Below, in pieces: positions 5,651 to 27,371 of a stretch of 64,000 nt of DNA (its first letter is position 1; every line of letters starts with the position of its first letter). The stretch is taken from the NCBI GenBank assembly GCA_001662655.1, contig KV460238.1; one strand, written 5' to 3'. Below the pieces are notes generated by a model. It was not told the DNA's origin, did not search any database, and saw only the letters and a list, made by a program, of their open reading frames with translations. Both the position numbers and the translations under genes were made by a program. Source of the stretch: Pseudogymnoascus verrucosus (taxonomy: Eukaryota).

Positions 5651-7635
5651 TCAATAGCTGGGCGCGTTCAGGGCAAGGGCCATGAGACCACCACCGATAA
5701 GACCGGCAATCGGGATAGTCACGACCCAGGAGAAGAACAGGAGACCAACACGCTGCCAGTTGACAGCCTTGAAGGTACCGTTGCAAAGTCCGACACCGAC
5801 GGTGGCACCAGTGATGCACATGGATGTAGAGACTGGGAGCTTGTACTGGGAGAAGATGAGGGTGGTGATGGCGGCGCCCATCTCCATGGACGAACCACGC
5901 GAGGGGGAGTGGTAGGTGAGCTTGTTACCCATGACCTTCATGATGTTGTAACCGTAGGTGATGAATCCGACACAGATGGTGAGGGCCATGACGGCGATCT
6001 GCCACGAGGGAACATCCTCCTTAGACTTGACAGTCTGGCCAGATTGCCATGCACCGTACATACCAGCCCAGACACCGACAGCGTTACCGACATCGTTGGC
6101 GCCGTGAGCGAAAGACGCGGTACAGGCGGTGATGATCTGGACGAAGGAGTAGAGGTACTCGACCTCGTTCTGGTACTTGGTGGCGTGGTCGTAGACGACG
6201 GCCATGCGGCGGCCCTCGGGGGTACCGAGGACACCGATCTGGGAGCCGTGGATGTCGTAGTAGACACCGTAGAGGAGGGCGCAGACGAGATGGGCGGGGA
6301 GGCGGACAAAGAAAGCCCAGAGGTTGTGGCGCTCGTAGATCTCACCGCTACCCATGGGGTGGTTGTGGAGAGTGCGCATGGCCCATCCGATTGGTCCTCT
6401 CTTGGTGCGGAGGAAGGCGTGGTGCTTGGCCTCGGCGCGGGCGAGGAGCAGGCGGTAGTGGGCTTGAGCGTTGATGCCGGCAGACTCGTCCTCCAACTGG
6501 GCGAGGGTCTTGGGGGCGGGTGCGCTCTTCTCGTTGGAGACGTCTCTCTCGCTGCCAGCAGGGGTAGTCTCAATGACGTCGAGGTCCTTGGTGGGCTCCT
6601 GGCCTGGAACCTTGAGATCTCCGGAGTCTTCCTCATCATTGTCGTGCTGGATGACGGCGTAGTTGGGAACGCGAGCCTGGGTGGCATCTGCCGGGGGAAC
6701 GCGGTGGAAGAGGGCAGGTCCTTGCCAGATATCGGTGATCTTGAGGGTGTAATCCTTCTTGATGACCTTGCAGTGGACGTATGGGACGAAGAAGAGACCG
6801 GCGAGGATGAACAGACCGAAGCCAACACCGAGGGTGACGCTGGCGATGTACCAGGCGGGCTTCTTATCGAGACCAAGGTTGGGGGATCCCTTGTAGACGA
6901 CGGAGAGCGTGCAAATGGTACCGGCGATCAGGAAGAAGAAAGGCGAGGTGAAGACAGCCCACTTGAGGGGGTCCTTGCGAGAGTGAACAGTTATCTTAAT
7001 GAGCATGAAGATGATCGAAGCAAAGCATCCAGATGCGATTGGGGCCATGCAAAGACCAGCGAAGATGGCACCGAGACCGGATCCGTTACTCCATCCCCAC
7101 TGGACGTTCTTAGCACCGACAGCGGCGACACCAACACCAGCGATGGAAGAGACCAGGGAGTATGTCGAAGAAACGTGGGCAGAGTTGCGAGTACACCACA
7201 TAACCCAGATGGCGGCACCAGCGGAAGCGCAGGCGAAAGCCAACAGCTGGACACCAGCGTTGCCGTGGAATGCAGCGATGGGGATACTGTTTGCTGTTAG
7301 CTAATGGTCCTCTTGGCTATTTGTTATAATTGTTGAACACTAACATTCCGTTCTTAATCGTAGAGGCAGTGCGAGCACCGACAGCCATGGCACCAGTGAT
7401 CTCGAAGACCAAGCACAAGAACATGGCCTGGCGGTATGTGACGGAGCGGGAGGACACCGACGTAGCCCAAGCGTTGGCAACATCGTCTATTGGAGGGTCA
7501 GCTCATGAACAATTGACAACAACAATGGGTATGAGGATGTGGTGGCAATAACTTACTTGCACCATTGTTAAACGCCTCAAGAAGCGCAAACATTGTGCCA
7601 AAGGCAAAAACGTAGGTATACTCGTGCATCACCAT
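5651..7635 (-). CDS. pho89: PiT-family Na+/phosphate symporter (Pho89 / Neurospora PHO-4 type), 3 exons
   Basis: Exon 1 MVMHEYTYVFAFGTMFALLEAFNNGA splices (GTAAGT donor at 7556) to NDVANAWATSVSSRSVTYRQAM. The second PHO4 repeat FAHGANDVGNAVG and the motif LPVSTSMCITGATVGVG lie in the 530 aa ORF. Confidence 0.93.
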
Positions 7636-8766: not shown

Positions 8767-11700
8767 CTAGATCTCATCCCAAACCACAAACGGCAACGCG
8801 CAATATGCAACACCCTCTACTAGCTTGCCAGTGCAATTCGCGATCTCCGTCCCGAGCGAGGGGTTGACTTCCAGAAAGATCGTGATTGTGGTCCCGCTCG
8901 TAAATGCAATAGTGCTGCACGTGTCCCCCGAGCCAGCCACTCGCCACGTCCCGCAGTTCAGGGTCGTGTTGGCTGCGACGGTCGCCCCGACTGGCGGGGG
9001 GCTGATGAAATGGCTATACCCCGGCGCGTCAGCTGGGATCGTCGTGTCGCCTGGCACGACGGTAGAATTTGCGGCAAACTCGCCGTTCTGCGGCGCTAGG
9101 CAGATGACGTGCCCGAAGGCGGCGTCACTAGCTGTGTGTAAGTTCGTGCAGTCGCGGTCGACCCAGCGATTGTACATTTGTACGTTGCCGATGACGGAGA
9201 CCAGTGTGGTCGCCGTGACATTATATTCGATCGAGGAGCAGGTGTCGTCTGGCTTGATAGTCCAAGTCATCGCACAAGCAGGCGGCAGGCAGAGCGAGGT
9301 GCCTGCCGCGATAGAGGAGCAGTCGTATATCGAGTCGGGATTCCCGGCGTAGAGAGCTGCGGAGGCGAGGCTGTGCGATTCCGCGATCGAGTCGCAGGTG
9401 TCGCCCTCGGCGGTGACAATCATCTTGTTGGTTTGACAGTACGTCGATGGGTCGGGGAGGTCGAGAGGTGAGTCGGGGATCGTGGTGCTTCCGCCGACTG
9501 GGCATTGCTCGAGCGTGTATTCGAGTTGCGACTTGATGAAGGTGTCGTAGCTAGAGAACTGCGAGCGCTGCATTATGGCAAAATGTTCTATCCAACAGTA
9601 GGAGCACATCTCTTTTGGCGGCATGTCTTGGATTTTGGAAACTTGGGTGAAGCCATCGATAACTTCGCCGCAGTACTTGCCCGTTATGGGATCCAAAAGA
9701 CAGGTCTGATTCCACCCACTCCAGATACGACCGCCGAGGAGAGTAGGCAGAGCATTGTTAACGCGATAGCCCGCACAAGCGATCGAAACACTATCGAACC
9801 AGCTCTTCAAGCTCTTCCCGCACGAAGCAGCGCAGACAGTATTGGTATCGTTGGCGGTTCCGAGCCAGCTTTGAATTCCGGGGGACTGATACGTCTCAGT
9901 ACGGTTATCACACGCGATAACTTCGGTCAGCGCACTCCTGCAACTATCAGGCAAGACAGGCCCGTATAAGCTGTCGAGCAGGGCATTCGACCACACGCGG
10001 TACCCGGGGAACTCGCGTTCACCGACAATATCAGTTGATCCCTGGAGCCAGGCCAAGACAGAGGAGAGAAACCCATTAACGTTATCCTTGGCGTATGTAG
10101 GTGTACTCCCTAGGGGCGAGACCATCTCCTTGATGGCCTTGGTGCATAAATTATAAAGCCAGATGTCGCTACTCTGCTGGATCTCGAGCCCGCGCTCCTG
10201 GCAGTCGTTGGTGTCCACGCAGGCTTGGCTGTAGTCATCGAACCAGCTGTAGAGTCCAGCGCCAAGGACGTAGATGGACGCCGAGTTGATGATGCGGACC
10301 GCCCAGGAGACCGCACAGCGAGCCGAGCCGCCTACGCAGCTAGTGAAGGTTGGGTCGTTGGGGAATTGTCCTGATGTGAAGGGGGCTGGTGCGTGAGGGA
10401 TTGGCTGGAAGTAAGGCGATTCCGTCTGAATCATGGCCATGACCACATCCTTTGCGTTGGAGAGTTGGTACTGGTACAGCACATTATGCTCGACCGAAGT
10501 TCCCCATAACCAAGCCTTATCGCTCTCAACAAGTAGACCTCGACCAGAGTAAATATCAATCTGATCTAGCGTCTTCGAATCCAAATCATGATCTGCCGTC
10601 CAGAGCCAGACATTCTCAAGATAGGCTGTCGACTTAGGCTTTAGGTGCATTAGGAGAGATGCAGCCTTACAGCGGGAATTGATAATCCCGGACTGCTTGG
10701 GGCAGTTCTTAACTGAGAGATCGCTACCTACCGCGCCGCCGATTCGGACATGGGTGTCTGTGCGAGAAGAACGGTTAGAATCAAATATTATAATTACCGG
10801 GTAAACACTGAGGTGTTGTATATAACTTACCCCACATGCCGGCAGCCCCAAGGCTTGATTCAGCCACGTTCCATTCAATGGCGACGGCACCTGCTGTGGC
10901 GCCCTTGACGGTGACCATCATACTCGTGATCTCAGCGATGCCGACATCCCCCGCCTTGCCCACTTGCACGACGGCTCTGGGTTGGGTTTCATCGGCGAAC
11001 TGATTACCGTAGAAGTTAAGTTAGCGACTAGACTTTTTCTTGAAAGCCCAACATTGCGTTCCAAAGAGCAGATAGCTTCTACTGACCATATCACCAGTTC
11101 CCATAATCTGCGACCAAACCTGTCCAATGATGCGGGATCCAACTGGCACACGGAGAGTATCCGTCACAATGTACACCCCATACGGAATGAAAACCACAGA
11201 CGAAGTATTCGCCGCGCCCTCAAGGATCGAATTGAGAATCTTCGTATCATCCGTCACCCCATCCCCCTTAGCCCCCAACGTCCTCGCATTCATAACCTTA
11301 CCAGCCGCCACATCAAGATACCCCGGCCGTCTCCTCGTAAACAAGTTCGGCGCCATCTTATCATACGCATCACCTAGCAGCGCCGTGCTCCGCTTCATGA
11401 CGGGGATACGCACCCCGTTAGCGAAGGAAGTTTTCCCGTCGCCGCTCGTTGCGGTGGTCACTAGCCCGAAACCCCAGTTATCAACTACGACCTGGTCTCC
11501 GCCGGCGAGGAGGACTTTGCCGGTTGTATCGTCGGTGATGGCTGTGACTGTGTTGAAGAAACCGACGTTCTGTAGCAGGAACGAGGTCGAGTTGTCGGCG
11601 AATAGCGTTGTCACGATGCCTTTAGGGGTGTTGGCGATGATGGAGTCGACTAGAATGAGAGATCCGACGCTTTGCCCAGTGGACTGCGGACCGCCGGCCT

Positions 11701-13436
11701 ATGAAAAGGTATGTTAGATTTTGGGGTCGTGGGAAATGGGGACTGGGGGTCGACTTACGCCGCCGATAATGAGGAGGCCGGTGCCGCAGCTCTCAATGAC
11801 AAAATCTTGCATCGTCCATGCCCAGTCCCAGTGCACTTGTAGGGCAATGACTGAGCTGACGAAGACGAGATGGCTGGTCGTGAACTGCTGGTTGCCAAAG
11901 TATGCCCTTTGAGCCGTCAGTAACTGCAATCCGTGCATATAGTCGGCTGAAAGGATGGCTCCTTACCCAAAATGCCCACCGACAAACGTGAGGTCTGCTA
12001 GAAATCCTCCGGAACCGTTCTCCATATATATTCCCTTGATATGCTACGTTAGCACTCTGTTATACGACTCAGGGGAAGTAAAAAAACGAGAAATGAGAAA
12101 TGAGAAATGAGAAAAGATATTGAAAGCTTACCTGTTGATTGTTGCCTGGCACATCGGACTCGTATAGCATGTAAAACTCGATGTTCTCAAGCGACGTCGC
12201 CTGCGCGACTTGCCAATGGATGCCACACAGGTAGCTCCACGGAGAAGCAGGCCTGATGTCGATTTTGAAATTTCGGACGCTGCGTAAGAAGTTTGCCGTG
12301 TTGAGATACCTAGAGGGCCACAGTTAAATCCCTTCCAGCTTGCGGCTTGCATACACTTAATGAAATCACATACCACTCCACATTATCGCTAACATAAACG
12401 TCGCTGGTGATTACTCCTTGGCCTACGAAACTCGACGCAGCGAGCAAGGTTGGAACCTGCACGGCCTAGACGGAAATACCTCCATTAGTGCCCTTCGAAC
12501 TTTGGTTCGGGGTTAAGTTGATTAGGACTCACATCACCGAGGAACTCCGTGTTGAAATATTGGATAATAGGACTGCTAACAAGGTACGTCCCAGGTGGGA
12601 AGTACACAACAGCTGGGTAGATAGTGCTTGACCCGCAGTCAGGACCACATCTCCCGCCTGAAGATACGGCGAGGTTAATAGCCTTCGTGTCATCTGTGAC
12701 GCCGTCGCCTTTGGCACCAAAATCTTTCACATTACGCCAGACCTATCACTCTATGATTAGCTCCAATCCAAAATAGAGTCAATGTTATCACTCGCGTGAG
12801 TAGAGGAAGCCCTACCTTATACCCAGCCGGTGCAAAAGGACTCGACCCAGACGATCCCATGTCCACCATCCACCATGCACTAGCCCGCTTGGATTTTGCT
12901 TCATGATCATCGCCATAGACTGAGAGTCGCCCCTCTGGTGTCTTATGCGATGGCGGAACGTTCGTGTCGTTCGTCTTGTGCGCATACTTCTTCTTCATTG
13001 TCGCAGCTACTGCGGAGTGATTCCCCTTAGCGACCTGCCGCGTCGCCTCAGCCATGATTCTCGCAGCGTCAGCGAGCTCGGGCGAGATGGAGTAGCTTTT
13101 GGCGGCTGTCTCAGTGGTACTGTTGGCCTGATTTTGGCGCTTTTGGGTAGTGCCATTGTTGACGATGGACGAGGGTTGTAGAGCAGCTGCCAGCTTAGGA
13201 GTTATCTTGCCAGATTGGAACTTGTACTTGTTGAAGTGCGGATTCTCGACGCGGGCTTTGTTAACACGGCTGAGCGCTGAGAGGCCCTCCTCTACCAATG
13301 CCACTGCGGCGGAGGTCTTGCTGCCATCGCGAGCGTGGTTACCGTGGAGGTGAGTTCCAGAGATCAGTGTGGCATGGAAGATGAGGAGGAGTATTGTGAG
13401 GACTACACTCCTCAATGGGGGATCGAAGCGCCGCAT
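8767..13436 (-). CDS. Secreted GH55 exo-beta-1,3-glucanase fused to a Cys-rich domain and three C-terminal LysM domains (multi-exon)
   Basis: Signal peptide MRRFDPPLRSVVLTILLLIFHATLISG and a pro-region with KR sites. Spliced GH55 motifs: VWRNVKDFGAKGDGVTDDTKAIN, NFLRSVRNFKID, GIHWQVAQATSLENIEF, GIYMENGSGGF, GNQQFT, a second GAKGDGVTDDT repeat, WLWTADHDLD, EHNVLYQYQ and QTESPYFQP. LysM repeats: GDTCDSIAESH..NP..C..LCLP, DDTCSSIE..N..DCTNL..ICL and GDTCSTIA..NPSLG..C. Confidence 0.9.
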
Positions 13437-13917
13437 AGTGATAAATACGACAGATAGAGACCTCACAAAGAAGGCTCTTGCTAGAGAGCTTGAAGATAGA
13501 TAGAAATATGCAACGCGGACATAGCTAAAGGGGTTATAACCTATACAAGCCATAGCATAGCCAACTTTCCTCCGCCTCCTTATGAGAGCCATAGATACAT
13601 ATCGGGTCTACGAATGGAGTGATATTCGTAACTGCCGTTTTCCCTACCGGCGTCCCGACGTTCGCCGTCAGCACCACATGCCAGCGCCGTAGCCGGGCTC
13701 TCGGCTTCTGCAAGGCAGGCCTATAGAATTAACTCTTGACATGATTAATGTAAAAAATACGAGCGCGAAAATATCTAGTGCACCGCAACGGAAGATTACC
13801 AATCTATGAAAAGGTCCAATTAATATAAATTATATGAGTAAACGCGACCCGTGCCGTAAGCATCGGAAACGCTAGCACCTTCGGCGCCAGCGACTATGCA
13901 AATTGGACCTCTGATAC

Positions 13918-14364
13918 CTTTACCAGCCTCGTAAGGCCAGCCAATCGCAAAATTTACTATTTTATATCCAATCAATTTACTGGGTTAGCCGTAATGTCAT
14001 ATGGTTAATGTCATATAGTTAAGAATAATCCTAAGAAGTTCTCGAAGGATTCTGTCGGCCGGCACTACAAGAGTCTGACCCGCCAAGGCACCCGTTGTCA
14101 ACCCGGTTTGAGCCTAGCAGTGCCAATTAGAAACAAGCTTCTTTACCCATCAGCCTCACTAAGCCGGCCAATCGTAAAATGAACATTTTATATCCAATCA
14201 ATTTACCAGGGTTAACCATAATGTCATATAATTAAGATAGAGCTATGCAAGAAGTTCTCAAAGGGTTCTATCCGCCTGCACTACATTAGTCTGACCCGCC
14301 AAGGCACCGGTTGTCAACCCCGTTTGAGGTTAGCGGTGCCAATTAGGAATAAGCTTCCTTACCA
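13918..14364. repeat. Diverged tandem duplication of ~220 bp in the shared GH55/GH18 promoter
   Basis: Shared blocks in both copies: ttttatatccaatcaatttac, aatgtcatata.ttaaga, aagaagttctc, gtctgacccgccaaggcacc.gttgtcaaccc and gtgccaattag.aa.aagcttc.ttacc. Confidence 0.9.
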
Positions 14365-14532
14365 CATTTAGACATATCAAAGTAGCCAAACCGCTAGTGG
14401 TCTATTAGTACCCACCGTTATGTCAACGAAGGATCAACGTGGATCAACGCAGGATCGGCGCCCTGACAGATTCAGTAGCGGATCGGCCCACGCTTGATTC
14501 AGGTCGACGTTTACTTAGCCACATATTGATTA

Positions 14533-14627
14533 GACATATGTTCCGGCCGTGAGATTTGCCCGCTCATAAGCTGACCGGCCAGCTCACGAGGGAGAATAAC
14601 TCACGGCTGGGCCGGAACACATATGTC
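14533..14627. repeat. Imperfect inverted repeat (hairpin) of ~95 bp
   Basis: Left arm gacatatgttccggccgtgag...agctg pairs with right arm cagct...ctcacggc...ggccggaacacatatgtc around a 6 nt loop (accggc). Confidence 0.8.
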
Positions 14628-15104
14628 AAGTCTGCGACGATCGGATCTGTAAGCAGTTTACACCATGAGTGTCTGAACAGTAAGCCGGCTTATTCTTGAC
14701 AGTGTCAAGGACGGTAAGCAACGTGATAACCGCGGTTCGGCAGTTCTTCTAATGCAACCCTTATACAAGTCCAAACATTGTTATGAGGCGTCATATAGGG
14801 ATGTGGATGCTCCGTGGGCTACTCACTTAGTCTCGGTCAAGGGTTGAACATACTACAGTCTCTCTTCATGACACATGATCCTTCGGAATAGACGGAAATG
14901 TAAGGCGCTTATTACAGAATTGTAAGTGATTAGCAATGGCTAATTGTACATTCTCTCCGAGCCGAGATCCCTTCGGGGTTTGCGAAGCAGGAGGACCTTA
15001 GACTCGCTTTTTCAACATCTCTCACCTCATCCCCACCATTCACCTCTCTCCATGATTCAGACCTCAGCGACCTGTCTCTTTGATTTCTAGACAAACTTCG
15101 CACA

Positions 15105-18100
15105 ATGGTGGCATCAAATCGCCTCCTACCGTATGCTCTCTGGGCGCTTCTGATATGCCTCCTAGGTCTCAGCAATGCCCAGGACGCCCCAGAGTGCAGC
15201 GCATCACTACCATGTACAGCGGGATGTTGCAGCAAATTTGGATTCTGCGGTTTAGGACCGGACTGTAAGAAGTTGCCCAAGCACGAGAGGAGCCAACCTC
15301 TTACCCCAGAGCAAAAGTTAACCTTGTATTACAGACTGCAGCAAGGATGTATGCGTCAATAACTGCGACCGCAAAGCTGATTGCGACCCGGGAGGTTATG
15401 GCAAAGACTACGTGCTCAAGACCACATGCCCCCTAAATGTTAGGACCGCTATCTATTCGTAACATTTCTGTCCTAACTGACATGTCTATATAGGTCTGCT
15501 GCTCTAAATATGGCTTCTGCGGAACAACAAAAGAGTTCTGTGGCACGAAAACCGTGAGGCGGCCAAGCTGTGACATTGACCAGAAAGGCAAGTTCAAGCG
15601 TGTTGTGGGATACTATGAGAGTTGGGCCACAGGGCGGCCGTGCAATCGCATCTACCCAGAGCAGATCCCTTCAGACATCTACTCCCATATCAACTTCGCC
15701 TTTGCTAGCATCGACCCCACCACTTTCGAGCTTGTCCCCGCCGATGTAGCAGATATTGATCTGTATAAGCGCGTGGCCAATCTCAAAGCCAAGGATATAA
15801 ACCTCAAGGTTCTCATCTCTGTGGGCGGCTGGACCTTCAACGACCCAGGTCCCACGGCCACGACTTTCTCTGATATTGCAAGAGATGAGACGGCTCAGAG
15901 GAAGTTCATCGACTCGGTGCTCAGATTCTTGCAGACGTATAACTTTGACGGCATCGACATAGACTGGGAGTATCCTGAAGCTGAGGATCGGAGCGGGCGC
16001 GGCGAGGATTTCGCCAACTTCCCTAAGTTTATGAAAAATATAAAGCAGACTCTCAAGAGCTATGAGGTCAGCGTCACACTCCCGGCGTCTTTCTGTAAGT
16101 TACGATGGCTCTTTCTTCAGCCTTAGTCTCTAGTCCCATCCCGATTTCTAGTTGACTCCTCAATCGAAACGTCTCTAAAACTCGCTATAGGGTACCTTCA
16201 ACACTTCGACCTTAAGAATCTCGCACCACACGTCGACTTCTTCAACATTTTGACGTACGACTTCCACGGCGTGTGGGACAAGCTGAACAAATGGGTCGGC
16301 CCGTATCTCAACTCTCACACCAACCTAACGGAAATCAAAGACGGTTTGGATCTCCTCTGGCGCAACGGCATCGACCACGACAAGGTGTCACTAGGCCTCG
16401 CCTTTTACGGCCGCGGATTTATAGCCAGCAGTCCCACTTGCCTCGAACCGGGTTGCACGTTCGAGTCCGGGACTGACGCCCAGTCGTGCAGCGCTGAGGT
16501 CGGTGTGCTGCTGAACTCAGAGATCGACGGCCTAGTCGCTGAGCAGAACTTAAAGCCCGTACTAAACAAGGACGCCGCCGTCAAAATCCTGACATGGGGT
16601 GGTAACAACTGGCTTACCTATGATGACGAGGAGACGCTGCAGATGAAGGCAGATTTTGCACGCAGCGAGTGCCTTGGCGGAGTCATGGTATGGGCAATCT
16701 CACATGATACGCAGGACATGAAGTACAGCAATGCTCTGTCGGGTGTGGCCCCAAGGCTGTTTAATTCCAAACTTTATCGGGGCAGCGTAGGTAACGGAGA
16801 TAATGGATATGTTACGGATGAAACGGACTATCAACAGTGTAGGTGGACAGGTTGCAACGAGGACTGCCCAGGAGACTGGATCCGTATGATGAGGAAGGAT
16901 GACGGCGCTAGGCGTGACGAGTTCATGGTCAATGGAGCGGGGTGTGGTGGATATGGTGAACAGTATGTCTACGTCTAGTGTCTCCCTGATCTAAGCACTT
17001 CGTCTGTGCTAACTCCTTCAAAGCAAGCTATGTTGCCCGCCAAGTGCCAACGTGCCCACATGCGGGTGGTACTCACATAGGAACGGCAATTGTGATAGTA
17101 AGTACCGATTCGCTCCATTCCCTATAATTCACAAACGCTCCTCCCACTAACTTCCCCGTAGATGGCGAATCCTGCCCAGCCGGCACAAAGGAAATCGGAA
17201 GCAACAGTGAATACTGTCACCCTAGCGGATTCTACTCGCCGATCAGGTCCTACCAAGCTGCATGCTGCACTACCGACACCGACAGTATGGTGTTATATTC
17301 CCAGTGCGACTGGTCCGCGAAAGTATCCCTCGGAAACTGGCCGGATTGTTCCAAGTCGTCGTGCAGTAATGATGTGGTCGCTTACTCTGGTGATGGCAGC
17401 GGCGAAGCCACCTGCTGGGGAGCCTGGTACGAGCAGCTAGGAGACTCACAAAAGAACAAGTACTGCTGTGATCAGCCTGATGATAACAAGAAATGGTCGG
17501 ACTGCGAGTGGCAGGGTAAAACAGACGTGAGTGATAATATACGGCCCCGTTTCTTTATTCTAAAACGCTACCATTTTGTAGTTCGATGCTTTAGCAGGGA
17601 AGATGCTAACTATAGAATGTTATTAGATCATTGACGAAGACACGGGGTTGCACATTTGCACGGGGGAGTGCTCGGGGGGCCTTATTATGGTGGCCGCGCA
17701 GCAGGCGGGATGCTCGGGTGGGGGGGCTGAAGTGAGATGCTGCAAGCCGAGCTACAAATCATTACAGAAGAGGTATCAGAACAGCGAAGATGATGAGTTC
17801 GCATACTATCTAAAACGTGAGTTAAGCTACTTTTTTTTCAACGTGACATATTGTGTGGTTCTGCCTAGTTGCTAACATGTTTCTGTTTGTAGGTTACATG
17901 GAGAATCCATTCTGCTCGGCAAATATCTTCAACTCTAACGGACTGCGAAAGCGTATTGACTCACCAGTATCCGACCTAGCTGTCACAGCTAGCAATGGTG
18001 AGTTAGGACCTTAGATGCTTTCAACAGTCGAAATCGGAGTTAACAGCAGATGCAATCTCTTAGGCACCGTGATTAAGCGTCAATTTAGCCCAGATATTGT

Positions 18101-19643
18101 GGCCCAGGACTACGCGGAGAAAATGGCCGAGGAACTCTTTATTGGAACGCCGCGACAATCTACCATAGATATATGGGATAACACAGTGGTTCCCTACTTT
18201 GATAACCTCTCCTATGCTAACCTCCATGACTACCAGATGGGAGCCGGACGTAACGAATTCCTGCAGTATGGAAGTACGCAATGGCCCTGGTATATCACCT
18301 GCAATATGGCTACCCTACAAATCGCAATGTCGGGCAATGGAGGTGACTCGGACCCGGGCTCAGGCTCCTGCACGACAACCTGCGTGTGTGTTAGGGCCGA
18401 CTGCTGCAGCGAGGATGACAGTGAATGCATCAACTCTAGCGAAGATGGGTATGACACCGTTTCCAAAAGGGCCGCAAAAAACTACGATTGGACGGCCTTC
18501 GATTATAGGACAGGTGCTAGACAGTCTCTTCCTTGGAGAGCACCAGATGTATGCCTTACTTCACTCTATTGACGTAACCTCTTAGAGACCAACAGCTAAC
18601 TAATCTAATTAGTATCCTTCACCAAGCAATTTGAACAAGATTAAGGAGCGCAGCAAATTCGCCGAATCGTACACATACGATCCGAACTGCGCTAGCTTCC
18701 GCCCTGTCGTGGTCGATTCTTTACAGGACGGCAAAATTGTTGATGGATTCGAAAGCAAGTCCGCCCTAAATATGACCATACTTGTTTCTGGCCCTAACTC
18801 TGTTTATTAGACGATCACATATTTGAGCGCAAGATGCTGCCTGTCTGGGGCGACAACGCGCTCCAGGGATACCTCGCAGGCAATGAAGACGCCAGCCATC
18901 GGGTACCGTACGATTTCTTCACAATATCCTTGCAACAAATCGACGCATCAGGCGCCACTATCCAAGACCGTATGATGATTGCGCTTGGGAGCAACACGAA
19001 CCGCGACGTGATGACGTTACTAGTTAAGGACTTAAACCTCGTAAAAGAGAGGGTAAGGGGTTCCTAGGACCTAATGTTTTGACGTTGAAACGACGAATGT
19101 TTAGCTGACAGCTTCTAGTTATGGACTACCACAGAATCCCCTATCGGCGACACAATGATGGAAAATCTAGTCTATGGAACAAGCACAATCACGGCATGCC
19201 CAAATCAGGGAATGGACAAAATCAGAAAAGTAAGATATCCCCTAGCAAGGCAGACCTATAGAAACAAATCGACTCACTATCTTCTCACAACACAGGTCCT
19301 CATCGTCTACCGATGGCACATGGAGCGAGAACCGCATAGACGCCTTAAAAATGTCATGAATAACCTTCGAGCTCTCCTCCACGAAGCAGACCTACACTAC
19401 GAGAGAACACACAACGGCCAGAAATCTTACGCAGTAGAGCACTTTGACGCCTGGACCAAGACGACATTTGAGGTAATGAGGGATAGAATCAAGGCTTGGG
19501 GCCAGAATTGGCTAGACGAACTGAACATACCTGCCATCACTAATAGTTATGTGGGTAATAGCATTCGACAGAACCTAGTTATTGCCTACGGCAATATCCC
19601 TGACATTGACACAACGGACTTTTACGTCCCAGATTATTCATAG
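15105..19643 (+). CDS. Subgroup C (killer-toxin-like, class V) GH18 chitinase: signal peptide, CBM18/hevein modules, GH18, Cys-rich region and a C-terminal putative HNH-like domain (about 13 exons)
   Basis: Signal peptide MVASNRLLPYALWALLICLLGLSNA; hevein-like CCSKFGFCGLGPDYC and CPLNVCCSKYGFCG; GH18 motifs RVVGYYESW, SVGGW, intact catalytic FDGIDIDWEYP, TYDFHG and LGGVMVWAIS. Canonical introns plus one GC-AG intron (18755-18810) keep the frame open to the TAG at 19643. Confidence 0.88.
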
Positions 19644-19835
19644 TTAGATGGCAGAGGAGCTAGGAGACGTTGATCCAGTGGGTTCGGTCTTAGGGGACCT
19701 AACTGCCAGGACAAAAAGACGGTCAGATGTTGTAATCTATCCTTAAAGATGTCACTGTATCTGCAGCAAAATGATACTATCCCCTATTATTGATAGAAGT
19801 GCGAGGTGTTGCGGAAATCATCGCTGAAGTCCATA

Positions 19836-20120
19836 CCCCTGGTTCTTGTGCCGCCTAGAAGCTCGAGGGGCTGTACTGTGATGTACATAGCTGAGAATCG
19901 ATGCTAGAAATTTGAGCTAATGGTATTTCTCTCTTTACCTGTATTTCCAAGTAATTAATGTGACAATACCAGTCCCTTGCTCTTGTGCTGCCCAAAAGGC
20001 CGCAGAGGGACTGTACTGTGCTATACATAGCCGAGGATCGATGCTAGCAATTCAAGCTAATAGTATTTCTCTATTTATCTCCATTTTTAAGTAATTAATG
20101 TGATATTAATAGCCCTTGGT
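19836..20120. repeat. 140 bp tandem duplication between the convergent chitinase and unknown gene
   Basis: ctgtactgtg occurs at 19871 and 20011. Shared blocks atcgatgctag, agctaat.gtatttctct and aagtaattaatgtga recur with a 140 bp period. Confidence 0.9.
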
Positions 20121-20277
20121 TAATATTTTAATTATAGTTGCCGTAATCACCGCTGCCATCCACAGTCCTTCTTCCGACTTTTGGGCGGCACGAGTAGATG
20201 GCCAAAGCTCTACCTTCTATTGCTGTCTAAGACATTCTCTTATAAAAAGGTCCTCTCATGTCGCTGTTCATATAGAC

Positions 20278-21267
20278 TTAACTCGGGGAATACCACAACT
20301 TCCCAGATCCATGGGGGATCTCCGTGCGTTCAAAGGTGTATAACCACTTCCCACTTGCCCTAGTCCTCTCAAACCATGCATCCGGGATGTCTTTAGTACA
20401 CAGCTTCATCCATCCATCATAGTTGTCGCCATCCCCGCCGCCCTGAAATCTTTTTACGGCCTGCGAGTCAACCAGCCAGACATACGAGTGGCAATAGAGA
20501 ACGTCCCGAGCCTACACGAACACAGTTTAGCATTCCCACATGATGAATAGGAGGGATGGCTTACACGTCTTTCCTCGCGAGATACTAGTTCTAACGACGG
20601 TGTCTCCTTGGGAAGTGTGGCGAGCGAGCGAAGCGAGCCCTCGTCGATGACTAGGAAGTCGCAGAACCTAGCGCTATCTTGGATGTTGAATTCGGCATTG
20701 CTGTCGACATCACCAACGGCATTGCAAAGCCAAGAATCAAAGGCGTTAGTGAGCGCCTTGATATCATCTTGGCTAGCGTTGTCAAGGTCAGGGACGTTTA
20801 TCTTCTCCAAGTCCACGTCAACTTCCTCAAGTATGAAGCGGCGCCCAAGCTCTTCATTGACTGAGCTGTCGCTTTTGTTCGTAGCCAGACGGTTAAGGTG
20901 AACAAAGTACTGCGTCACCCAGCGCCTTAGATTTTCTAACGCAATCGGCCATAGTGTGTTAGACTCATCTGAGTATGTTGTGCGTAGTACTAGTTTTGTC
21001 AGATTATGCCAGATCATATCGAATTAATCAAGGTTGTATAATACATAACGAATAAGTGAATGTGATGGCGTATTTACCTGTGTAGCCCCACGATCCTTCA
21101 GCGTATCTGCCTGAGTTTTTATATCTGCACATGGAGTCGTTCATCATACTGAACCACCACATGGCCTGTGTATCCTTATCACGATTGAACATTGGTAAAG
21201 TATGCGCAGATAATTCGCGGGATGGTTTGGGAAACGTTTCTTTGATAGACATTATGGATGGATGCAC
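20278..21267 (-). CDS. Uncharacterised cytosolic fungal protein (~282 aa, WGYTVLRTTY...GWM type), 3 exons; candidate immunity protein
   Basis: Exons 21267-21078, 20989-20565 and 20511-20278 splice in frame through GT-AG introns: ...SWGYTVLRTTYSDESNTLW...ARFCDFLVIDEGSLRSL...YVWLVDS...YDGWMKL...WYSPS*. No signal peptide. Confidence 0.75.
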
Positions 21268-22097
21268 TTTCGCAAGGTAAATATTCGAAACGGGGGTGTA
21301 GGAAGCCTGATGTAGATATAAAAGTGATTATGGAGGTAGTAGAAAGGAGAATTAAAAATGTTAACTAAAGATAAGTTAATGTGATTTTTCGTGCGTGTCC
21401 TAACTTCCTGGTATTGTACGAGGCTATGGCCTGTACTTATAATGGAGCTCAAGCCACTCTTCCGATCGCCCTAACGCACGAACCACCCACGCCCCCTTGC
21501 GTCGGGTCCAGCCGCCAGGGTCGTCGGACTAAAACAAACGGCGGGTTTAACACCCATCCCATTTCTATTTCGAACCAAGCTGTCAATTGTTTGCCGTTTC
21601 TCGGGCTTCCTGTCGCCACAACACGCCTTGAGCGACAAGCGACGGAGACGAGAACTAGTCTTCGACTTGGCTTTGGCTTTGCGGGATAGGGAAGGGAGAG
21701 AGAGGGTGAGGCGCGGACTTGGGCGAAACTTTCACGGACACTCGATACTCGCTCATCCTCTCGGAATTGCCAATACACCACCGACGCTAAAGAGACGCTT
21801 GCTCGGGGCTTCTACAACATTGGAGAAGCGGCTTGAAAGGGAGTAGAGCGGTTTGTTTGACGCCAACACCGAGACGAAGACGGAGTTCCCGGTGCCTGGG
21901 TAACAAAGCGAACAGCAGGCAAGGGGCGCAACGAGGGACACAGATCGAACAGACACACATCCGCAATACGCACATACTCTTCTATTGAAACGGAAGAAGA
22001 GAACTACACGCCCAAGAGGCAACATAACCATCATCCGTCGACCAGCCAGACCTCACGACCACCTCCAAATCTCCCACCCGCACAAACCACCGCAACG

Positions 22098-23180: not shown

Positions 23181-26100
23181 CTAATACAAATCCTCATCCT
23201 CCTCCGCCCTCCCAAACCCACCAACAGCCACTCCCTCATCGGTATCCTCCTCCATCCTCGCCTTTCCCTTCCCCTTCCCCTTCCCACTACTCCTCGGCCT
23301 CCCATTCACCAACTTCTTCTCCACCACTCCATTAGCCTTCTTCCCATCCGCACCCCCGTTCGCCTCCGGAACAGCCTCAAACTGCGCCCGCACCTTCGTA
23401 TAATGCTCCAACTCCTTCGCACTGACACTGGGAATCAGCTCCTGCTGCGCAGCCATGAAATCCTCTTCTGTGACCACCACAGCCACATCTGCTGGCTTTG
23501 CGTAGTGGTCGAAGAAGTACGCCGTCGTGATTGTGTCGTCGGGCGCGCGCTGAGAGTTGATGGCTTTGACTTGTGCGTCTACAGCGGATGCTTGGCGTGT
23601 TACGGCTTTGAGCATGGCGTCGGAGCAGAGGGCGTAGAAATCGGCACCAGTGTAGGTGAAGGGAAGGCGGGTGGCGATGCGTGGGAGTGAGAGGGTGGGT
23701 GACATGGTGAATCTGGGATAGTGTCAGTATGACCCGGTTCAAAAGGATAAAAGGGGCTGGGAAGGGGGATACGTACTTCCTGGTCAACGCCTCCATGATC
23801 GTTGCCTGCTTGTCGTGTGTATCGCTCACACCAAGGTAGAGCATCTTATCGAAGCGACCCGGGCGGAGCAGCGCTGCATCCAGCAGATCGGGACGATTCG
23901 TCGCGCCGATGACGAATACGCCACCGCCGCCATCATCGCCATCGCTCATTCCATCCAGCTCTGCGAGCAGCTGGGACACGATACGATCCATGACACCTCC
24001 ACTATCACCCTGGTTACCACGCTTCGGCGCGACGGAGTCGAGCTCATCGAAGAAGACAACGCAGGGCCTCGCGTCGCGCGCCCGCTGGAACACACGGCGC
24101 ACGTTCGCCTCAGACTCTCCAATGTACATGTTGAGCAGCTCTGGGCCCTTGACGGAGAAGAAGTTGAGCGCGAACTCAGTCGCGATGGCCTTTGCCAACA
24201 GCGTCTTACCCGTACCGGGTGGACCATAGAACAGGATACCAGAGCGCTTCTTCATGCCCTTAGCGAACAGCTCAGGGCGCTCGAGCGGCAGCTGGATGGT
24301 CTCCATGACAGCATCCTTGACGTGCGCGAGACCACCGACATCGTCCCACGTGACGTTGGGGATCTTCGGCGCACCGATAGCGTCGGCGAAGTTCTGACGT
24401 GCGTGCTCAACAGCGTGGTTGAAATCGGCGCTGGTGAGGCTGCGCGATGGGCCACCAGATAGCTGCACGTCGCGCACGGAGACGGGGAGGGCGGCCGAGG
24501 CGGCCGAGGTAGCGAGGCTTTCGAGACGAGTGTGGCGTGCCACCAGGGCACGGTCCACGACGTCAACTAGGTCACCAGCAACGAGAGCGGCGGTTTTGAC
24601 GGCTACGCCACCAAGGTCTACGTCGGTTGAGAGGGAGACACCGCGGTCATCGACGATGCTGTGGAGGATGCTCTCACGCTCGCCTTCATCGGGTGCATGC
24701 ATATCGAGCTCGTGAGTGAACAGGCTGCGGATTCCGTCCGGTACCTTGTCCACTTCCGTTGTGGTCGCGATGATGACGCGGGAGTCGGCGAGGACGTCCT
24801 TCAAAGCTGCAATCATCCGCTCAGCCGCCAGGGCCTCGATGTGGCGGACTACGAGTGCCGTGTTCTCCGCGCCGCAGGTCAGGGCACGATCGGCACGCGC
24901 CTTAAGGAAACCTTCTGTCTTAACATCGCCGCCGGCTCCACCTTCGCTGACTATGTCGTACGCGTCGATGGTGAAGCTGTGAAGACCGATATCGGAACAG
25001 GCTCTGCTAGCAAGCGTTGCTTTGCCAATGTTCCTCTGGGTTGACACAAGCAGGATGGCTAGCGGTGGGAGCTTTAGGTGGATAGACCTTGCGCTTGTCG
25101 CCGCTGCGACCAGTTCTCGCAGTTGGCGGCGGAGAGGGGTGATGTGCTGAGGCTGAGGCTCTGGCATAGTCGGGGCCAAAGCATCAGAACTAGATTTAGA
25201 GACCGCTCGCAGCTTGAAGTAGTGCTCCCAAGGGCTGTCCTTGGTCGGTGGCAAGCGGCTCTTTTCCGTCCCAGCTGCAGCCATTTGCGTCTGGGAGAAA
25301 TCAATAGCTGCTACGCCGCCCCAGATATCCTCGTCCTCAGGGTCCTCAACCTCTTCGCGTCGTGCGTGCGTGATATGGCTAACCTTGAACCAAATAACCC
25401 CAGTAGATTTCGTCAAACTGGTCCCCTGCTGATCGGGGTTGACTAACATGTCGTCTGTTATCGCGTCCTCTTTACCCGATGAAGTCTGGAATAATGTCCT
25501 TCCTAATGCCTCATCGATTGGAATTCCGACGATATCTCCAGTCTTGACAACCCTTGCTCTCTGAGTGAAGTGTCGCTTGAGGCCGCTAATAGCAGCAGTC
25601 TGGAGAGTCTTCTCAGTAGCCAAAGGTGTAGCAATCTTTGCGAAAGTCACCTCGCGGGCAACGGGTGGCAGCGAAGTGTTGGTAATCTTCGGTAGTGAAG
25701 CCTTCCCTACCGTCTGGGTCTGCTTCAGAGTCGACAAGCGCACATATGGGGTGCTATCTAGATTGGCTAACAGTATTGGTGAAAGATAGACTGTCGGGCT
25801 CGTGGGTTTCGACACCTGTGAGTCGAAGAATGACATCTTCTTTGACCCTCTGCTAGACGGTATCTTGGTGACGGCCCTGTGCGAGTACCCTTCTGGCAAA
25901 CTGTAAACCTTGACAGGTCGCCAGATGAAGTCCTCATCCTGCGCCTGTCCAAAGCTACCCAGTGTCCACAGACCCATGCCTTGCTCAGGCGGCTCAGAGG
26001 CAGTCTCCAGGCGGACCCAATCGCCTGAGAAGCAGCCGATCTTAGTGAGCGAGTTTACGTCAACGTAGATGCGTGCTTCCTCGTCATCGTCGGCTGGAGG

Positions 26101-27371
26101 AGTAGGGCGGAGCAGCTCTTCGGGAAGAGGGCTCATTAGACCCTGCGCCTTGAAGAGTCTGCCCCGTTGGCCACCAGCTCGCGCTGTTGTCGCAGTGTAA
26201 TTTGAAAACACGGATCCGGGAGTCGCAATGCCATTGGTTCTACGGCTAGGGCCGAGAGGAGTAGCCATGCCACTTATATTCGAGGAGGGCAGCATTGGAG
26301 CTTGTAAAGAAATCATCTCATCCATAGAATCGTCCGACAGATTGTCCGTATCGTCAAGGTCTTGATCTTCGGCCTCAGTCTCTGTCATTGAGTCGTCTTC
26401 AGGAGCCGCATCGGTTTTGTAGCGGTCTTCGGCGGCCGAAAAGAACTGCTCATTAGAGGTATCCTCATCTACCTCAGTGACCTGGTCTAGAACGCGCCTC
26501 AGAGACATATTCGACGCCTTCCTGACAGTCCTCGTGTGGTGCCCCGTCTGCGTGACAATGATGCGCGTATTAGGCGACAATATGCCCTGTGCGACTGGCT
26601 CACACAGAGTCACCTTTGCTGGTGGGGGCAAAACATGCGTGATAGAATGCGGCGCCAGAGGAAGCGGGAAAAAGTCACCTGCATGCACAACCTTCAATGA
26701 CGACAGGGCTTCTCGGATTGCCGAGCTGAGTCGGTCTTCCGGCACAGCGCTCTTTCCATTTGCATGGTTGCCGTTGGCCAGCGGGTGCTCGCCATGGAAC
26801 GTTCCCTCACCATTTTCAAGTCGCTTGGCCAGGCCAGCCTCGAGAGTGACGAACACAGTGTCCAATGTCAGGGGCAACACATCAAGTGCCCAGATCTCGA
26901 TTCCGCTACGGCTGTGACTGAGCAGTTTCGACGGAGTCGTGCGCTGGAGCTCTTCGGCAAAGCCTTGTAGGGCGACAGAGCTGGGCGCGAACTGTATAGT
27001 GTTGGTCGCGAGGGCGCTCGACGGCCTCACGGGCACGACAGTCCAGCTAATTTCGTCCACGGAATTGAAGGGGGCTTTCGGGGATATCGCAATGTGTGCA
27101 AGCTCGGGTATGCCGACGGGTCCGTCGCCGTTTGTTTCGTCGTCTTCATTGCACTGTTAGCCGACCGAATTACTCGTATTTCATGCAGTCACTTACGTTG
27201 GTCTTGGGCGGGAAAGAGCTCGTTATAGAGGTCTTCTGACACAATCCCCACATCGCCTCGGACATGCTCATCCAGCACCAGTCTCGCGAATACCGCAGAC
27301 TTGTCCTGGCGACGTCTTCTCTTGCGCTTGCGCCTGTTAGCTATCGGGGTATGCTGTATAACAGCCGACAT
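23181..27371 (-). CDS. PEX6: Peroxisomal AAA+ ATPase Pex6 (3 exons)
   Basis: D2 domain GAPKIPNVTWDDVGGL...GMKKRSGILFYGPPGTGKTLLAKAIATEF...FFDELDSVAPKRGNQGDSGGVMDRIVSQLLAELDGMS...ATNRPDLLD and a degenerate D1 (QRNIGKAT). Last exon reads YTGADFYALCSDAMLKA...PSVSAKELEHY. First exon starts MSAVIQHTP. Confidence 0.95.

What the first reader, a model, noticed from the sequence alone, without database searches (positions are those of the whole stretch)
8767..21267. Candidate fungal polymorphic toxin locus: GH55-LysM, GH18 chitinase with C-terminal toxin, and a putative immunity gene
Seen: three adjacent genes form a compact block between core genes. A secreted glucanase-LysM fusion and a secreted chitin-binding chitinase share a ~1.7 kb divergent promoter. 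The chitinase carries a long KR-punctuated extension ending in a nuclease-like domain, and a signal-peptide-less unknown gene lies convergently downstream. Established: subgroup C chitinases resemble the chitinase alpha subunit of Kluyveromyces lactis zymocin, which delivers a nuclease gamma subunit, and they are known to pair with LysM genes (Trichoderma tac6/tal6). Inference: this is a two-enzyme wall-breaching delivery system (beta-1,3-glucan plus chitin) for an interchangeable intracellular toxin with a linked protector, analogous to bacterial polymorphic toxins.
Basis: partly seen in the sequence, partly recalled or inferred. Interest (0 to 1): 0.88.

Follow-up and report, generated by a model that had tools for sequence, protein, structure and literature searches.

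The report
Fungal chitinase tail with linked binding partner
A soil fungus carries a large secreted chitinase whose conserved, cleavable tail is predicted to be gripped by the protein of the neighbouring gene, which looks like a built-in toxin and antidote pair rather than the swappable toxin cassette first proposed.

Summary
The three genes are real. The window is Pseudogymnoascus verrucosus. It holds a GH55-type glucanase with LysM (minus strand, 8767-13436) and a CBM18-GH18 chitinase of 1232 aa (15105-19643). The third gene encodes a 277-aa protein without a signal peptide (20278-21252, VE01_07298). The block lies between a PHO4 transporter and PEX6.

The public chitinase model is truncated because a GC-AG intron was missed.

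The tail is not interchangeable. Its last 330 residues are homologous in 83 of 86 full-length relatives, and it was found only in chitinases. No nuclease family or fold matched.

The tail does have a conserved KR cleavage site and a near-invariant H/E/R/G/N/N/K set.

Gene 3 sits beside the orthologous chitinase in seven genomes of three lineages. A cognate Colletotrichum pair scored 0.89 in complex prediction, against 0.00 for the controls.

Best reading: a killer-toxin-like chitinase with a fused effector domain and a cytosolic antidote-like partner. Toxicity, expression and the glucanase's role are untested.

The parts
8767..13436 (-). GH55-type (two PF12708 beta-helix halves) secreted glucanase with C-terminal LysM region. 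ATG at 13436, stop at 8767-8769, several introns (exon limits not resolved here).
   Evidence: Pfam hits on ORF pieces 12488-12742, 12072-12323, 11717-11962 and 11024-11698 (PF12708) and 8770-10917 (LysM). ATG and signal-like N-terminus.
13437..15104 (.). 1668-bp divergent intergenic region between the glucanase and chitinase start codons. It contains no ATG ORF of 45 aa or more.
15105..19643 (+). Chitinase gene, 13 exons, 1232 aa. Exons: 15105-15264, 15335-15438, 15494-16094, 16191-16962, 17024-17097, 17162-17526, 17627-17816, 17893-17997, 18064-18548, 18613-18754, 18811-19052, 19119-19229, 19296-19643.
   Evidence: Exons 1-9 from exact mapping of the deposited model P0001. Exons 10-13 from splice enumeration and relatives. 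The model is collinear with the 1235-aa orthologue VF21_00739, 88.0% identity over 1229 aligned residues.
15105..16962 (+). Signal-like N-terminus, two CBM18 modules and the GH18 catalytic domain (DGIDIDWE at aa 240).
17024..18470 (+). Cys-rich region and helical middle domain of the tail, with KR sites at aa 740, 755, 775, 795 and 925. K925-R926 lies at 18465-18470 and is the family-conserved 'LxKR' site.
18755..18810 (+). GC-AG intron (GCAAGT...TTATTAG), 56 nt. The deposited model VE01_07296 reads through it and stops at the TAG at 18808-18810, which gives 1017 aa.
18471..19640 (+). C-terminal domain (CTD, aa 927-1232) downstream of the KR site. The conserved core lies in exon 18811-19052 (FENDHIFERK ... 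DRMMIALGSNTNRDVMTLLVKDLNLVK) and is followed by a long-helix bundle.
20278..21252 (-). Gene 3 (VE01_07298), 277 aa, no signal peptide. Exons 21252-21078, 20989-20565 and 20511-20278 (stop included). Proposed cytosolic binding partner (antidote-like) of the CTD.
5651..7300 (-). Flanking PHO4-family phosphate transporter (context only).
23380..26508 (-). Flanking PEX6 AAA ATPase (context only).

Best explanation
The locus encodes a subgroup-C ('killer-toxin-like') secreted chitinase of the CBM18-only, C-I-type architecture. Its long tail is a conserved, family-wide module.

Shown: the chitinase has an intact catalytic motif. Its tail has a Cys-rich part, a helical middle part, a conserved KR site and a ~306-aa C-terminal domain (CTD). 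The CTD has near-invariant polar residues (H, E, R, G, N, N, K) and no match to any known family or fold. The neighbouring gene encodes a 277-aa protein without a signal peptide. That gene stays next to the orthologous chitinase in Pseudogymnoascus, Monosporascus and the Colletotrichum acutatum complex.

Predicted: the neighbour's protein binds the CTD, and the contact touches or flanks part of the conserved residue set.

Inferred mechanism: the precursor is cut at KR sites by a Kex2-type protease in the secretory pathway, as in the zymocin alpha/beta precursor. The chitin-binding chitinase part docks on and opens a competitor's wall. The CTD is the effector, probably an enzyme of a new fold acting on or inside the target cell. 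The cytosolic gene-3 protein neutralises any CTD that reaches the producer's own cytosol, so it acts as an antidote or immunity protein.

The GH55-LysM glucanase, which shares the 1.7-kb divergent promoter, would help by removing beta-1,3-glucan. This last step rests on position alone.
For: Identity and gene models.

Tail conservation: a profile of 5 distal tails hits 70 of 86 full-length relatives at E<1e-5, rising to 83 of 86 after iteration. The middle part goes from 38 to 84 of 86.

Conserved residues among 55 aligned relatives: H 53, E 47 (plus 7 D), R 51, G 55, N 53, N 53, K 55. The site upstream is dibasic in 38 of 55. The window's own exon carries all of these residues.

Adjacency by consecutive locus tags or accessions on the same contig: VE01_07296/07298, VF21_00739/00740, DL767_009307/009306, KAK0378287/86, CaCOL14_004416/17, KAK1453506/05, KAK1718308/07.

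Complex prediction for the cognate C. limetticola pair (CTD residues 874-1176 plus the 275-aa neighbour): ipSAE 0.89, 0.89 and 0.88, best of 3 controls 0.00. The runs agree in at least 72% of contacts and the partner pLDDT is at least 88. According to the tool, this mark was reached by 51 of 78 solved complexes and 2 of 108 mismatched pairs. The interface includes N1027 and residues next to K1030 and H953. Neither protein has a solved relative, so the pass is not a memory of a known complex.

Rates: between the three lineages the CTD is 54-59% identical and gene 3 is 57-63% identical, while GH18 is 76-86% identical. Effector and partner therefore diverge at similar rates, both faster than the catalytic domain.
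Against: No toxicity, processing or expression data exist. No RNA run was available.

The CTD matched no toxin, nuclease or pore-former family or fold. The best structural rows are generic helical bundles below the noise level for helical proteins.

The linkage is not universal. A 53%-identical gene-3 relative on a metagenome contig has no chitinase within 10 kb upstream or 1.26 kb downstream. In C. tropicale the chitinase (N0V92_011012) and a gene-3 homologue (N0V92_001166) lie on different contigs. No gene-3 homologue was listed for Thyridium, Emericellopsis, Dactylonectria or Rhypophila, although that search was limited by length and by its word index.

The folded pair is from Colletotrichum, not from the window. 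In that clade the conserved Arg is Met.

The tool states that 7 of 44 blindly drawn neighbouring gene pairs also pass.

A tail conserved in almost every relative could equally be a structural or substrate-binding module.
Confidence: 0.5

Rival explanations
1. Ordinary wall-degrading enzymes. The chitinase and glucanase serve nutrition, autolysis or wall remodelling. The tail is a structural, wall-anchoring or substrate-binding module. Gene 3 is merely a syntenic neighbour, and the predicted complex is a false positive.
For: The tail is conserved in 83 of 86 relatives and is always attached to the same enzyme, as expected of an accessory module. It matched no toxin family or fold. The block sits between housekeeping genes. 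The tool notes that 7 of 44 blind neighbour pairs pass.
Against: A cytosolic protein kept next to a secreted enzyme across two fungal classes needs a reason. The score of 0.89 against controls at 0.00 lies well above the range of 0.34-0.59 in which the tool's false passes scored. A near-invariant H/E/R/N/N/K set looks like an active site rather than a scaffold.
Confidence: 0.27
2. One reading: a polymorphic toxin locus in which a conserved delivery enzyme carries interchangeable C-terminal nuclease toxins, each with its own immunity gene.
For: The tail diverges faster than the enzyme part: 54-59% identity against 76-86%. An adjacent partner is predicted to bind it. The feature search of the protein atlas gave GmrSD_C, AHH and HNH_4 nuclease families as weak leads at 0.78-0.80.
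Against: The tails are one homologous family in 83 of 86 relatives. No other N-terminal context was found: all 8 'odd' hits are chitinase fragments. The atlas scores lie in the range that shuffled proteins reach a third of the time, according to the tool. None of 38 relatives hits any nuclease family in Pfam even at E up to 10.
Confidence: 0.05
3. A degenerate or atypical member of the published zymocin-like clusters (C-II chitinase, small secreted gamma-toxin and Imm protein). Here the gamma gene would be lost or unrecognised, and gene 3 would be a member of the Imm-P family.
For: Gene-3 homologues occur in the Colletotrichum species in which such clusters were described, including strain SAR 10_71. 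KR processing sites are present. The published C. siamense cluster lies beside PHO89, a phosphate transporter (passage seen), and this block also lies beside a PHO4-family transporter.
Against: There is no small secreted ORF in the intergenic regions. The chitinase and 120 listed relatives have no LysM. The last Cys of the chitinase is 125 residues from the C-terminus, whereas the cluster chitinases have a near-terminal Cys. The authors report no clusters in Leotiomycetes.
Confidence: 0.1

Closest known systems
Kluyveromyces lactis zymocin (alpha/beta chitinase precursor, gamma tRNase, cytosolic immunity protein) and the zymocin-like nuclear clusters of Pezizomycotina (Heneghan, Salzberg, Wolfe, bioRxiv 10.1101/2024.10.25.620242; Results read)
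   Same: Both have a large secreted chitin-binding GH18 protein with KR processing sites. Both have a non-secreted protein encoded next to it that is proposed to neutralise the toxic part. Both show patchy distribution and have introns. The presumed role in both is fungus-against-fungus competition.
   Different: This locus has no separate small secreted gamma-toxin gene. The chitinase has the CBM18-only (C-I type) architecture without LysM. It has no near-terminal Cys for a disulfide to a gamma subunit. The candidate effector is fused to the chitinase itself. The host is a Leotiomycete, a class in which that study found no cluster.
Subgroup C-I fungal chitinases (Seidl 2005, Karlsson and Stenlid 2008 classification, as summarised in the papers read)
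   Same: The size is about 1200 aa. The architecture has a signal peptide, CBM18, GH18 and a long C-terminal extension, without LysM.
   Different: In the papers I read and searched the extension is not described as a domain with conserved catalytic-type residues. No linked partner gene is reported either.
Bacterial polymorphic toxin systems (a conserved delivery part, a variable C-terminal toxin and an adjacent immunity gene; recalled from Zhang et al. 2012, not read here)
   Same: There is a C-terminal effector behind a processing site, and an adjacent gene for a predicted binding partner.
   Different: The C-terminal domain is one family throughout (83 of 86) and is not found in other architectures. 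The partner gene is convergent rather than co-directional.
Trichoderma tac6/tal6 type pairs of a subgroup C chitinase with a LysM protein (review PMC4392113, passages seen)
   Same: A LysM-bearing secreted protein is encoded next to a subgroup C chitinase.
   Different: Here the LysM protein is fused to a GH55-type glucanase, and the chitinase itself lacks LysM. Whether this pairing recurs in other genomes was not tested.

Membership tests
GH18 chitinase, subgroup C (killer-toxin-like) | GH18 catalytic domain with the DxxDxDxE motif | tested here: met
   PF00704 with E 2.6e-37 and 6.5e-26. DGIDIDWE at aa 240.
GH18 chitinase, subgroup C (killer-toxin-like) | Large size (over 1000 aa) with chitin-binding modules | tested here: met
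   1232 aa. CBM18 PF00187 with E 4.1e-07, plus a second weaker copy at E 0.0019.
Subgroup C-I rather than C-II | No LysM module on the chitinase | tested here: met
   No PF01476 hit on any chitinase piece, on any of the 120 listed relatives, or in 38 relatives scanned at E up to 10.
Subgroup C-I rather than C-II | Placement of the GH18 domain in the C-I clade of a reference phylogeny | not tested
Zymocin-like killer toxin gene cluster | Adjacent small secreted gamma-toxin gene | tested here: not met
   No ATG ORF of 45 aa or more with a signal-like N-terminus lies in 13437-15104, 19644-20277 or next to the block.
Zymocin-like killer toxin gene cluster | [quoted passage not shown] | tested here: not met
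   The last Cys is at aa 1107 of 1232.
Zymocin-like killer toxin gene cluster | Immunity gene homologous to the VLE Imm proteins (Imm-P group) | not testable with these tools
   No Imm sequence could be obtained. The gene-3 profile has no PDB sequence match and no Pfam match.
Zymocin-like killer toxin gene cluster | Dibasic processing site that splits the chitinase precursor | tested here: met
   KR at aa 925-926. The site is dibasic in 38 of 55 relatives. Actual cleavage has not been shown.
Polymorphic toxin system | Unrelated C-terminal toxin domains on closely related N-terminal parts | tested here: not met
   83 of 86 full-length relatives share a homologous distal tail.
Polymorphic toxin system | Adjacent gene whose product binds the C-terminal domain | tested here: met
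   Adjacency in 7 genomes. Predicted complex scores 0.89 against controls at 0.00. This is an in-silico result only.
HNH / His-Me finger or other nuclease (for the CTD) | Match to a nuclease family or fold | tested here: inconclusive
   Nothing in Pfam, PDB sequences, Foldseek or VIA-align. The atlas gave only noise-level leads. The 471-aa model was searched whole, not as single domains.
GH55 exo-beta-1,3-glucanase | Two tandem right-handed beta-helix halves | tested here: met
   PF12708 covers profile positions 1-212 in pieces 2-4 and starts again at profile position 2 in piece 5. That this Pfam pattern equals CAZy GH55 is my recollection. No CAZy tool was run.

The most novel reading that the evidence does not exclude
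The whole CBM18-only (C-I type) branch of killer-toxin-like chitinases across Pezizomycotina consists of single-chain killer toxins. The chitinase part delivers a Kex2-released C-terminal enzyme of a new fold, with a catalytic H/E/R/N/N/K set. The VE01_07298 family is a new class of cytosolic immunity proteins that caps this domain. On this reading the cassette of chitinase plus antidote moves between distant fungi, which would explain why the GH18 parts of a Leotiomycete and a Sordariomycete are 85.5% identical.
Probability: 0.3. Interest if true: 0.85.

Novelty: new variant of a known kind. Interest (0 to 1): 0.7.

Why it matters
Subgroup C chitinases are induced in fungal confrontations, but only the LysM-bearing C-II branch has been tied to a killing mechanism, through separate gamma-toxins.

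The function of the ~500-aa extension of the other branch is not described in the papers I could search. If that extension carries the effector and VE01_07298-type genes encode its antidote, a large and widespread enzyme family gains a mechanism. A new toxin fold and a new immunity family would also be defined. Many genome annotations that truncate or split these genes would need correction, as happened here through a GC-AG intron.

The claim is directly testable with two small constructs in yeast.

Tried and rejected
1. RNA evidence. No RNA holder was listed. The two runs laid (X1, X2) are DNA-type contigs about 99% identical to the window and show no joints. Nothing can therefore be said on expression, splicing of the GC-AG intron or co-induction.

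2. Own genome. It is not held, so paralogues and their neighbours could not be inspected. Handles for L001 are also not held.

3. Nuclease idea for the CTD. Pfam gave nothing on the window exons and P0002, and nothing on 38 relatives at E up to 10. A 21-sequence core profile against the PDB gave 0 hits at E up to 10. Foldseek PDB gave 0 hits at E 0.001 or better. In VIA-align wide the best Z was 6.0 (6m6z_A, a designed transmembrane pore, rmsd 6.2, 161 aligned). In the second look the best Z was 6.2 (8x84_A, a gustatory receptor, rmsd 6.4, 195 aligned). Both are below the tool's noise level for helical models. The atlas leads GmrSD_C, AHH and HNH_4 scored 0.78-0.80, which is noise level. My attempt to read an HNH-like H...N...N pattern into the motif rests on recall only and was dropped.

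4. Fold of gene 3. Foldseek PDB gave 0 hits at E 0.001 or better. In VIA-align wide the 16 best rows are all class II aminoacyl-tRNA-synthetase-type anticodon-binding domains or their homologues. The best is 2pme_A at Z 6.2, rmsd 3.7, 112 aligned, which is under the tool's threshold of 8. I keep this as a curiosity, not as evidence. Pfam found no family for the first member of the 22-sequence gene-3 alignment, only two single-member matches at E above 0.1, and nothing for DUF6924, a lead from the atlas at 0.86.

5. Other architectures for the CTD. The 8 non-full-length hits checked are all fragments of the same chitinase architecture.

6. Metagenome scan with the gene-3 profile. It gave one locus, with no chitinase nearby.

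7. Earlier findings of this scan. There were none.

8. Literature. Searches found no paper describing a conserved effector-like domain or a partner gene for CBM18-only subgroup C chitinases, and none describing a GH55-LysM pairing. Subscription reviews (for example Tzelepis and Karlsson 2019) and the closed supplementary tables of the bioRxiv preprint were not seen and may bear on this.

9. A first MAFFT run timed out. A run whose tails still contained part of the Cys-rich region was discarded as circular and replaced.

Full report
**What is there**

The window comes from Pseudogymnoascus verrucosus. An exon of the tail is 100% identical to the deposited protein VE01_07296.

- On the minus strand, four pieces match PF12708. 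Profile positions 1-212 are covered, and then the profile starts again, which is the two-beta-helix pattern that I recall as typical of GH55. The last exon has a LysM (E 3.7e-10).
- On the plus strand there are two GH18 pieces (E 2.6e-37 and 6.5e-26) and CBM18 (E 4.1e-07).
- 8 of the 16 pieces had no family at all: the first glucanase piece, all five tail pieces and both pieces of gene 3.

The glucanase ATG is at 13436 and the chitinase ATG at 15105, so the two genes share a 1668-bp divergent region. The flanks are a PHO4-family transporter and PEX6. An NF-YA gene, an amylase and metabolic genes lie further out. The block is therefore embedded among housekeeping genes.

**Gene models**

The Thyridium curvatum orthologue P0002 (1146 aa) aligns to the window from 15105 to 19631. 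The deposited 1017-aa model stops at 18810.

The reason is a GC-AG intron at 18755-18810 (GCAAGT...TAG). It is the only splice choice that is in frame and restores the family motif FENDH.

With this intron the gene has 13 exons and encodes 1232 aa. The model is collinear with VF21_00739 of Pseudogymnoascus sp. 05NY08 (1235 aa, 88.0% identity over 1229 aligned residues).

Gene 3 has 3 exons (21252-21078, 20989-20565, 20511-20278) and gives 277 aa, identical to VE01_07298.

The chitinase has DGIDIDWE at aa 240. It has KR at aa 740, 755, 775, 795 and 925, and RR at 1132.

**Is the tail interchangeable? No.**

A library-wide single-sequence search with the P0002 tail found only 35 representatives at E 0.001 or better.
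- The three representatives of about full length (1150-1185 aa: P0048, P0054, P0066) are CBM18-GH18 chitinases, and a 570-aa hit (P0053) also carries GH18.
- The 8 shorter or domain-less hits that I checked are fragments of the same architecture.

I then took the 120 best relatives of P0002 listed out of 252, together with P0002, P0048, P0054 and P0066, which made 119 sequences.
- 98 had a tail of at least 350 aa, and 86 had one of at least 520 aa.
- A profile built from the last 330 residues of only five close tails hit 70 of the 86 at E<1e-5 (Z set to 100,000), and 83 of 86 after iteration.
- The middle part went from 38 of 86 to 84 of 86.
- The three tails not reached are P0176, P0198 and P0199.

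None of the 120 relatives lists a LysM. None of 38 relatives scanned at E up to 10 has one either. In that scan GH18 was found in 38 of 38 and CBM18 in 35 of 38.

The extension is therefore a conserved module of the CBM18-only (C-I type) branch and not a swappable cassette. It does evolve faster than the enzyme part. Between the window, Monosporascus and Colletotrichum limetticola, GH18 is 76-86% identical and the CTD is 54-59% identical.

**What the tail looks like**

An AlphaFold model of the P0002 tail with 56 aligned sequences has mean pLDDT 77.8. It shows:
- a helical middle domain;
- a disordered linker;
- a small mixed alpha/beta core;
- a bundle of long helices.

Just upstream of the core the family has an 'LxKR' site, which is dibasic in 38 of 55 aligned relatives and exactly KR in 37. 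In the window it is K925-R926 at 18465-18470.

Among the 55 aligned relatives the core has H in 53, E in 47 (D in 7), R in 51 (M in 4), G in 55, N in 53, N in 53 and K in 55. The window's exon 18811-19052 has all of them.

This pattern looks like an active site. However, no family or fold matched. The searches are listed under Tried and rejected. The label 'nuclease-like' is therefore unsupported, and the activity is unknown.

**Gene 3**

A search found 45 homologues (of 93 candidates) in Pseudogymnoascus, Colletotrichum, Monosporascus, Phialemonium and Staphylotrichum. None has a Pfam domain.

P. verrucosus has a second copy, VE01_05343, which is 79.8% identical.

The model (pLDDT 78.3, pTM 0.83) is an alpha/beta fold without a significant match.

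**Linkage**

By consecutive locus tags or accession numbers on contigs of equal length, the gene-3 orthologue lies next to the orthologous chitinase in these genomes:
- P. verrucosus: VE01_07296 / VE01_07298, which is the window itself;
- Pseudogymnoascus sp. 05NY08: VF21_00739 / VF21_00740;
- Monosporascus sp. MG133: DL767_009307 / DL767_009306;
- C. limetticola: KAK0378287 / KAK0378286;
- C. acutatum: CaCOL14_004416 / CaCOL14_004417;
- C. melonis: KAK1453506 / KAK1453505, where the gene-3 model is fused to a CAP-domain gene;
- C. lupini: KAK1718308 / KAK1718307.

Apart from the window, this rests on numbering and not on inspected DNA.

Several '208-aa SCP-like' members of the same database cluster turned out to be a neighbouring CAP protein and not gene 3. 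I did not count them.

Evidence against a universal link:
- The one metagenome relative (53% identity) has an NLR-like neighbour and no chitinase nearby.
- In C. tropicale the two genes lie on different contigs.
- Several species that have the chitinase showed no gene-3 hit in the length-limited search.

**Predicted binding**

For the cognate C. limetticola pair I folded the CTD after the KR site (residues 874-1176 of P0232) together with P0017.
- The scores were 0.89, 0.89 and 0.88, and the best of three controls was 0.00.
- The runs agree in at least 72% of contacts, and the partner pLDDT is at least 88.
- The tool's calibration: the mark was reached by 51 of 78 solved complexes and by 2 of 108 mismatched pairs. 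Of blindly drawn neighbouring gene pairs, 7 of 44 passed.
- The interface includes residues 947-950, 965-975 and 1024-1051 of the CTD. That is N1027 itself and positions next to K1030 and H953.
- On the partner's side the interface includes its variable N-terminal helices and the invariant E246.

The model supports binding but does not show it. The pair is a relative of the window's pair, not the window's own.

**Interpretation**

The published zymocin-like clusters of filamentous fungi combine a LysM-bearing C-II chitinase, a separate small secreted gamma-toxin and sometimes an Imm gene. None was found in Leotiomycetes (Results read).

This locus differs in four ways:
- There is no small secreted ORF.
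- The chitinase has no LysM.
- It has no near-terminal Cys.
- The candidate effector is part of the chitinase itself.

I therefore read it as a variant of the killer-toxin-like theme. It is a single precursor whose KR-released C-terminal domain is the effector, paired with a cytosolic antidote-like protein.

Shown: anatomy, conservation and linkage. Predicted: binding. Inferred: cleavage, toxicity, immunity and the helper role of the GH55-LysM enzyme.

The main rival is that these are ordinary wall enzymes with an accessory tail and a neighbour that means nothing. I give the pair-as-functional-unit reading about 0.5.

**Verdict**

The finding is a new variant of a known kind and is worth a bench test.

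Noticed in passing
window 18755-18810: A GC-AG intron (GCAAGT donor) is read through in the deposited model VE01_07296. This truncates the protein to 1017 aa and removes the conserved C-terminal domain. The orthologue VF21_00739 is annotated at full length (1235 aa).
   Followed up: yes
window 19230-19295: This 66-nt intron (GTAAGA...CACAG) is in frame and free of stops. The Thyridium model P0002 keeps an equivalent 22-residue insert, which is the low-confidence loop 333-350 of the tail model. It may be a retained intron in that annotation.
   Followed up: partly
window 15105-16962 compared with P0048 and P0002: The GH18 region is 85.5% identical between this Leotiomycete and Monosporascus (Sordariomycetes), and 82.6% identical to Thyridium. 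This is unusually high for different classes. Together with the patchy distribution it hints at horizontal transfer of the cassette or at very strong constraint.
   Followed up: no
window 8971-9375 and 20374-21192, compared with protein P0007 (V502_07060): The model from Pseudogymnoascus sp. VKM F-4520 fuses a gene-3 orthologue (82-85% identical) directly to sequence 68-75% identical to the LysM end of the glucanase, on the same strand. This would fit an ~11-kb deletion that removed the chitinase and the glucanase catalytic part in that strain, or a paralogous locus.
   Followed up: partly
L001:4355-7843 (minus strand): The only metagenome relative of gene 3 lies beside an NLR-like gene. That gene has an N-terminal PigL_N-like region, an NPHP3_N/NACHT-type NTPase and ankyrin repeats.
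   Followed up: no
window 5651-7300: The block abuts a PHO4-family phosphate transporter. The published C. siamense zymocin-like cluster is reported to lie between SLD and PHO89, also a phosphate transporter (passage seen). No SLD-like gene was seen in the window. This may be coincidence.
   Followed up: partly
proteins P0209 and P0213 (Colletotrichum acutatum complex): In these species a secreted CAP/SCP-domain protein is encoded next to the gene-3 orthologue. The order is CAP, gene 3, chitinase in C. lupini, and the first two are fused in one C. melonis model. This has spread the misleading name 'SCP-like extracellular protein' to gene-3 homologues.
   Followed up: partly
protein P0271 (VE01_05343), another contig of the same genome: This is a second copy of gene 3 in P. 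verrucosus, 79.8% identical over 277 aa. Its neighbours could not be inspected because the genome is not held.
   Followed up: no
window 14800-21400: Two public runs (X1, X2) hold this stretch as DNA-type contigs. X1 holds it in one 8130-base contig with 60 differing letters and 3 gaps over 6601 bases. Close relatives therefore also carry the chitinase and gene 3 together.
   Followed up: partly
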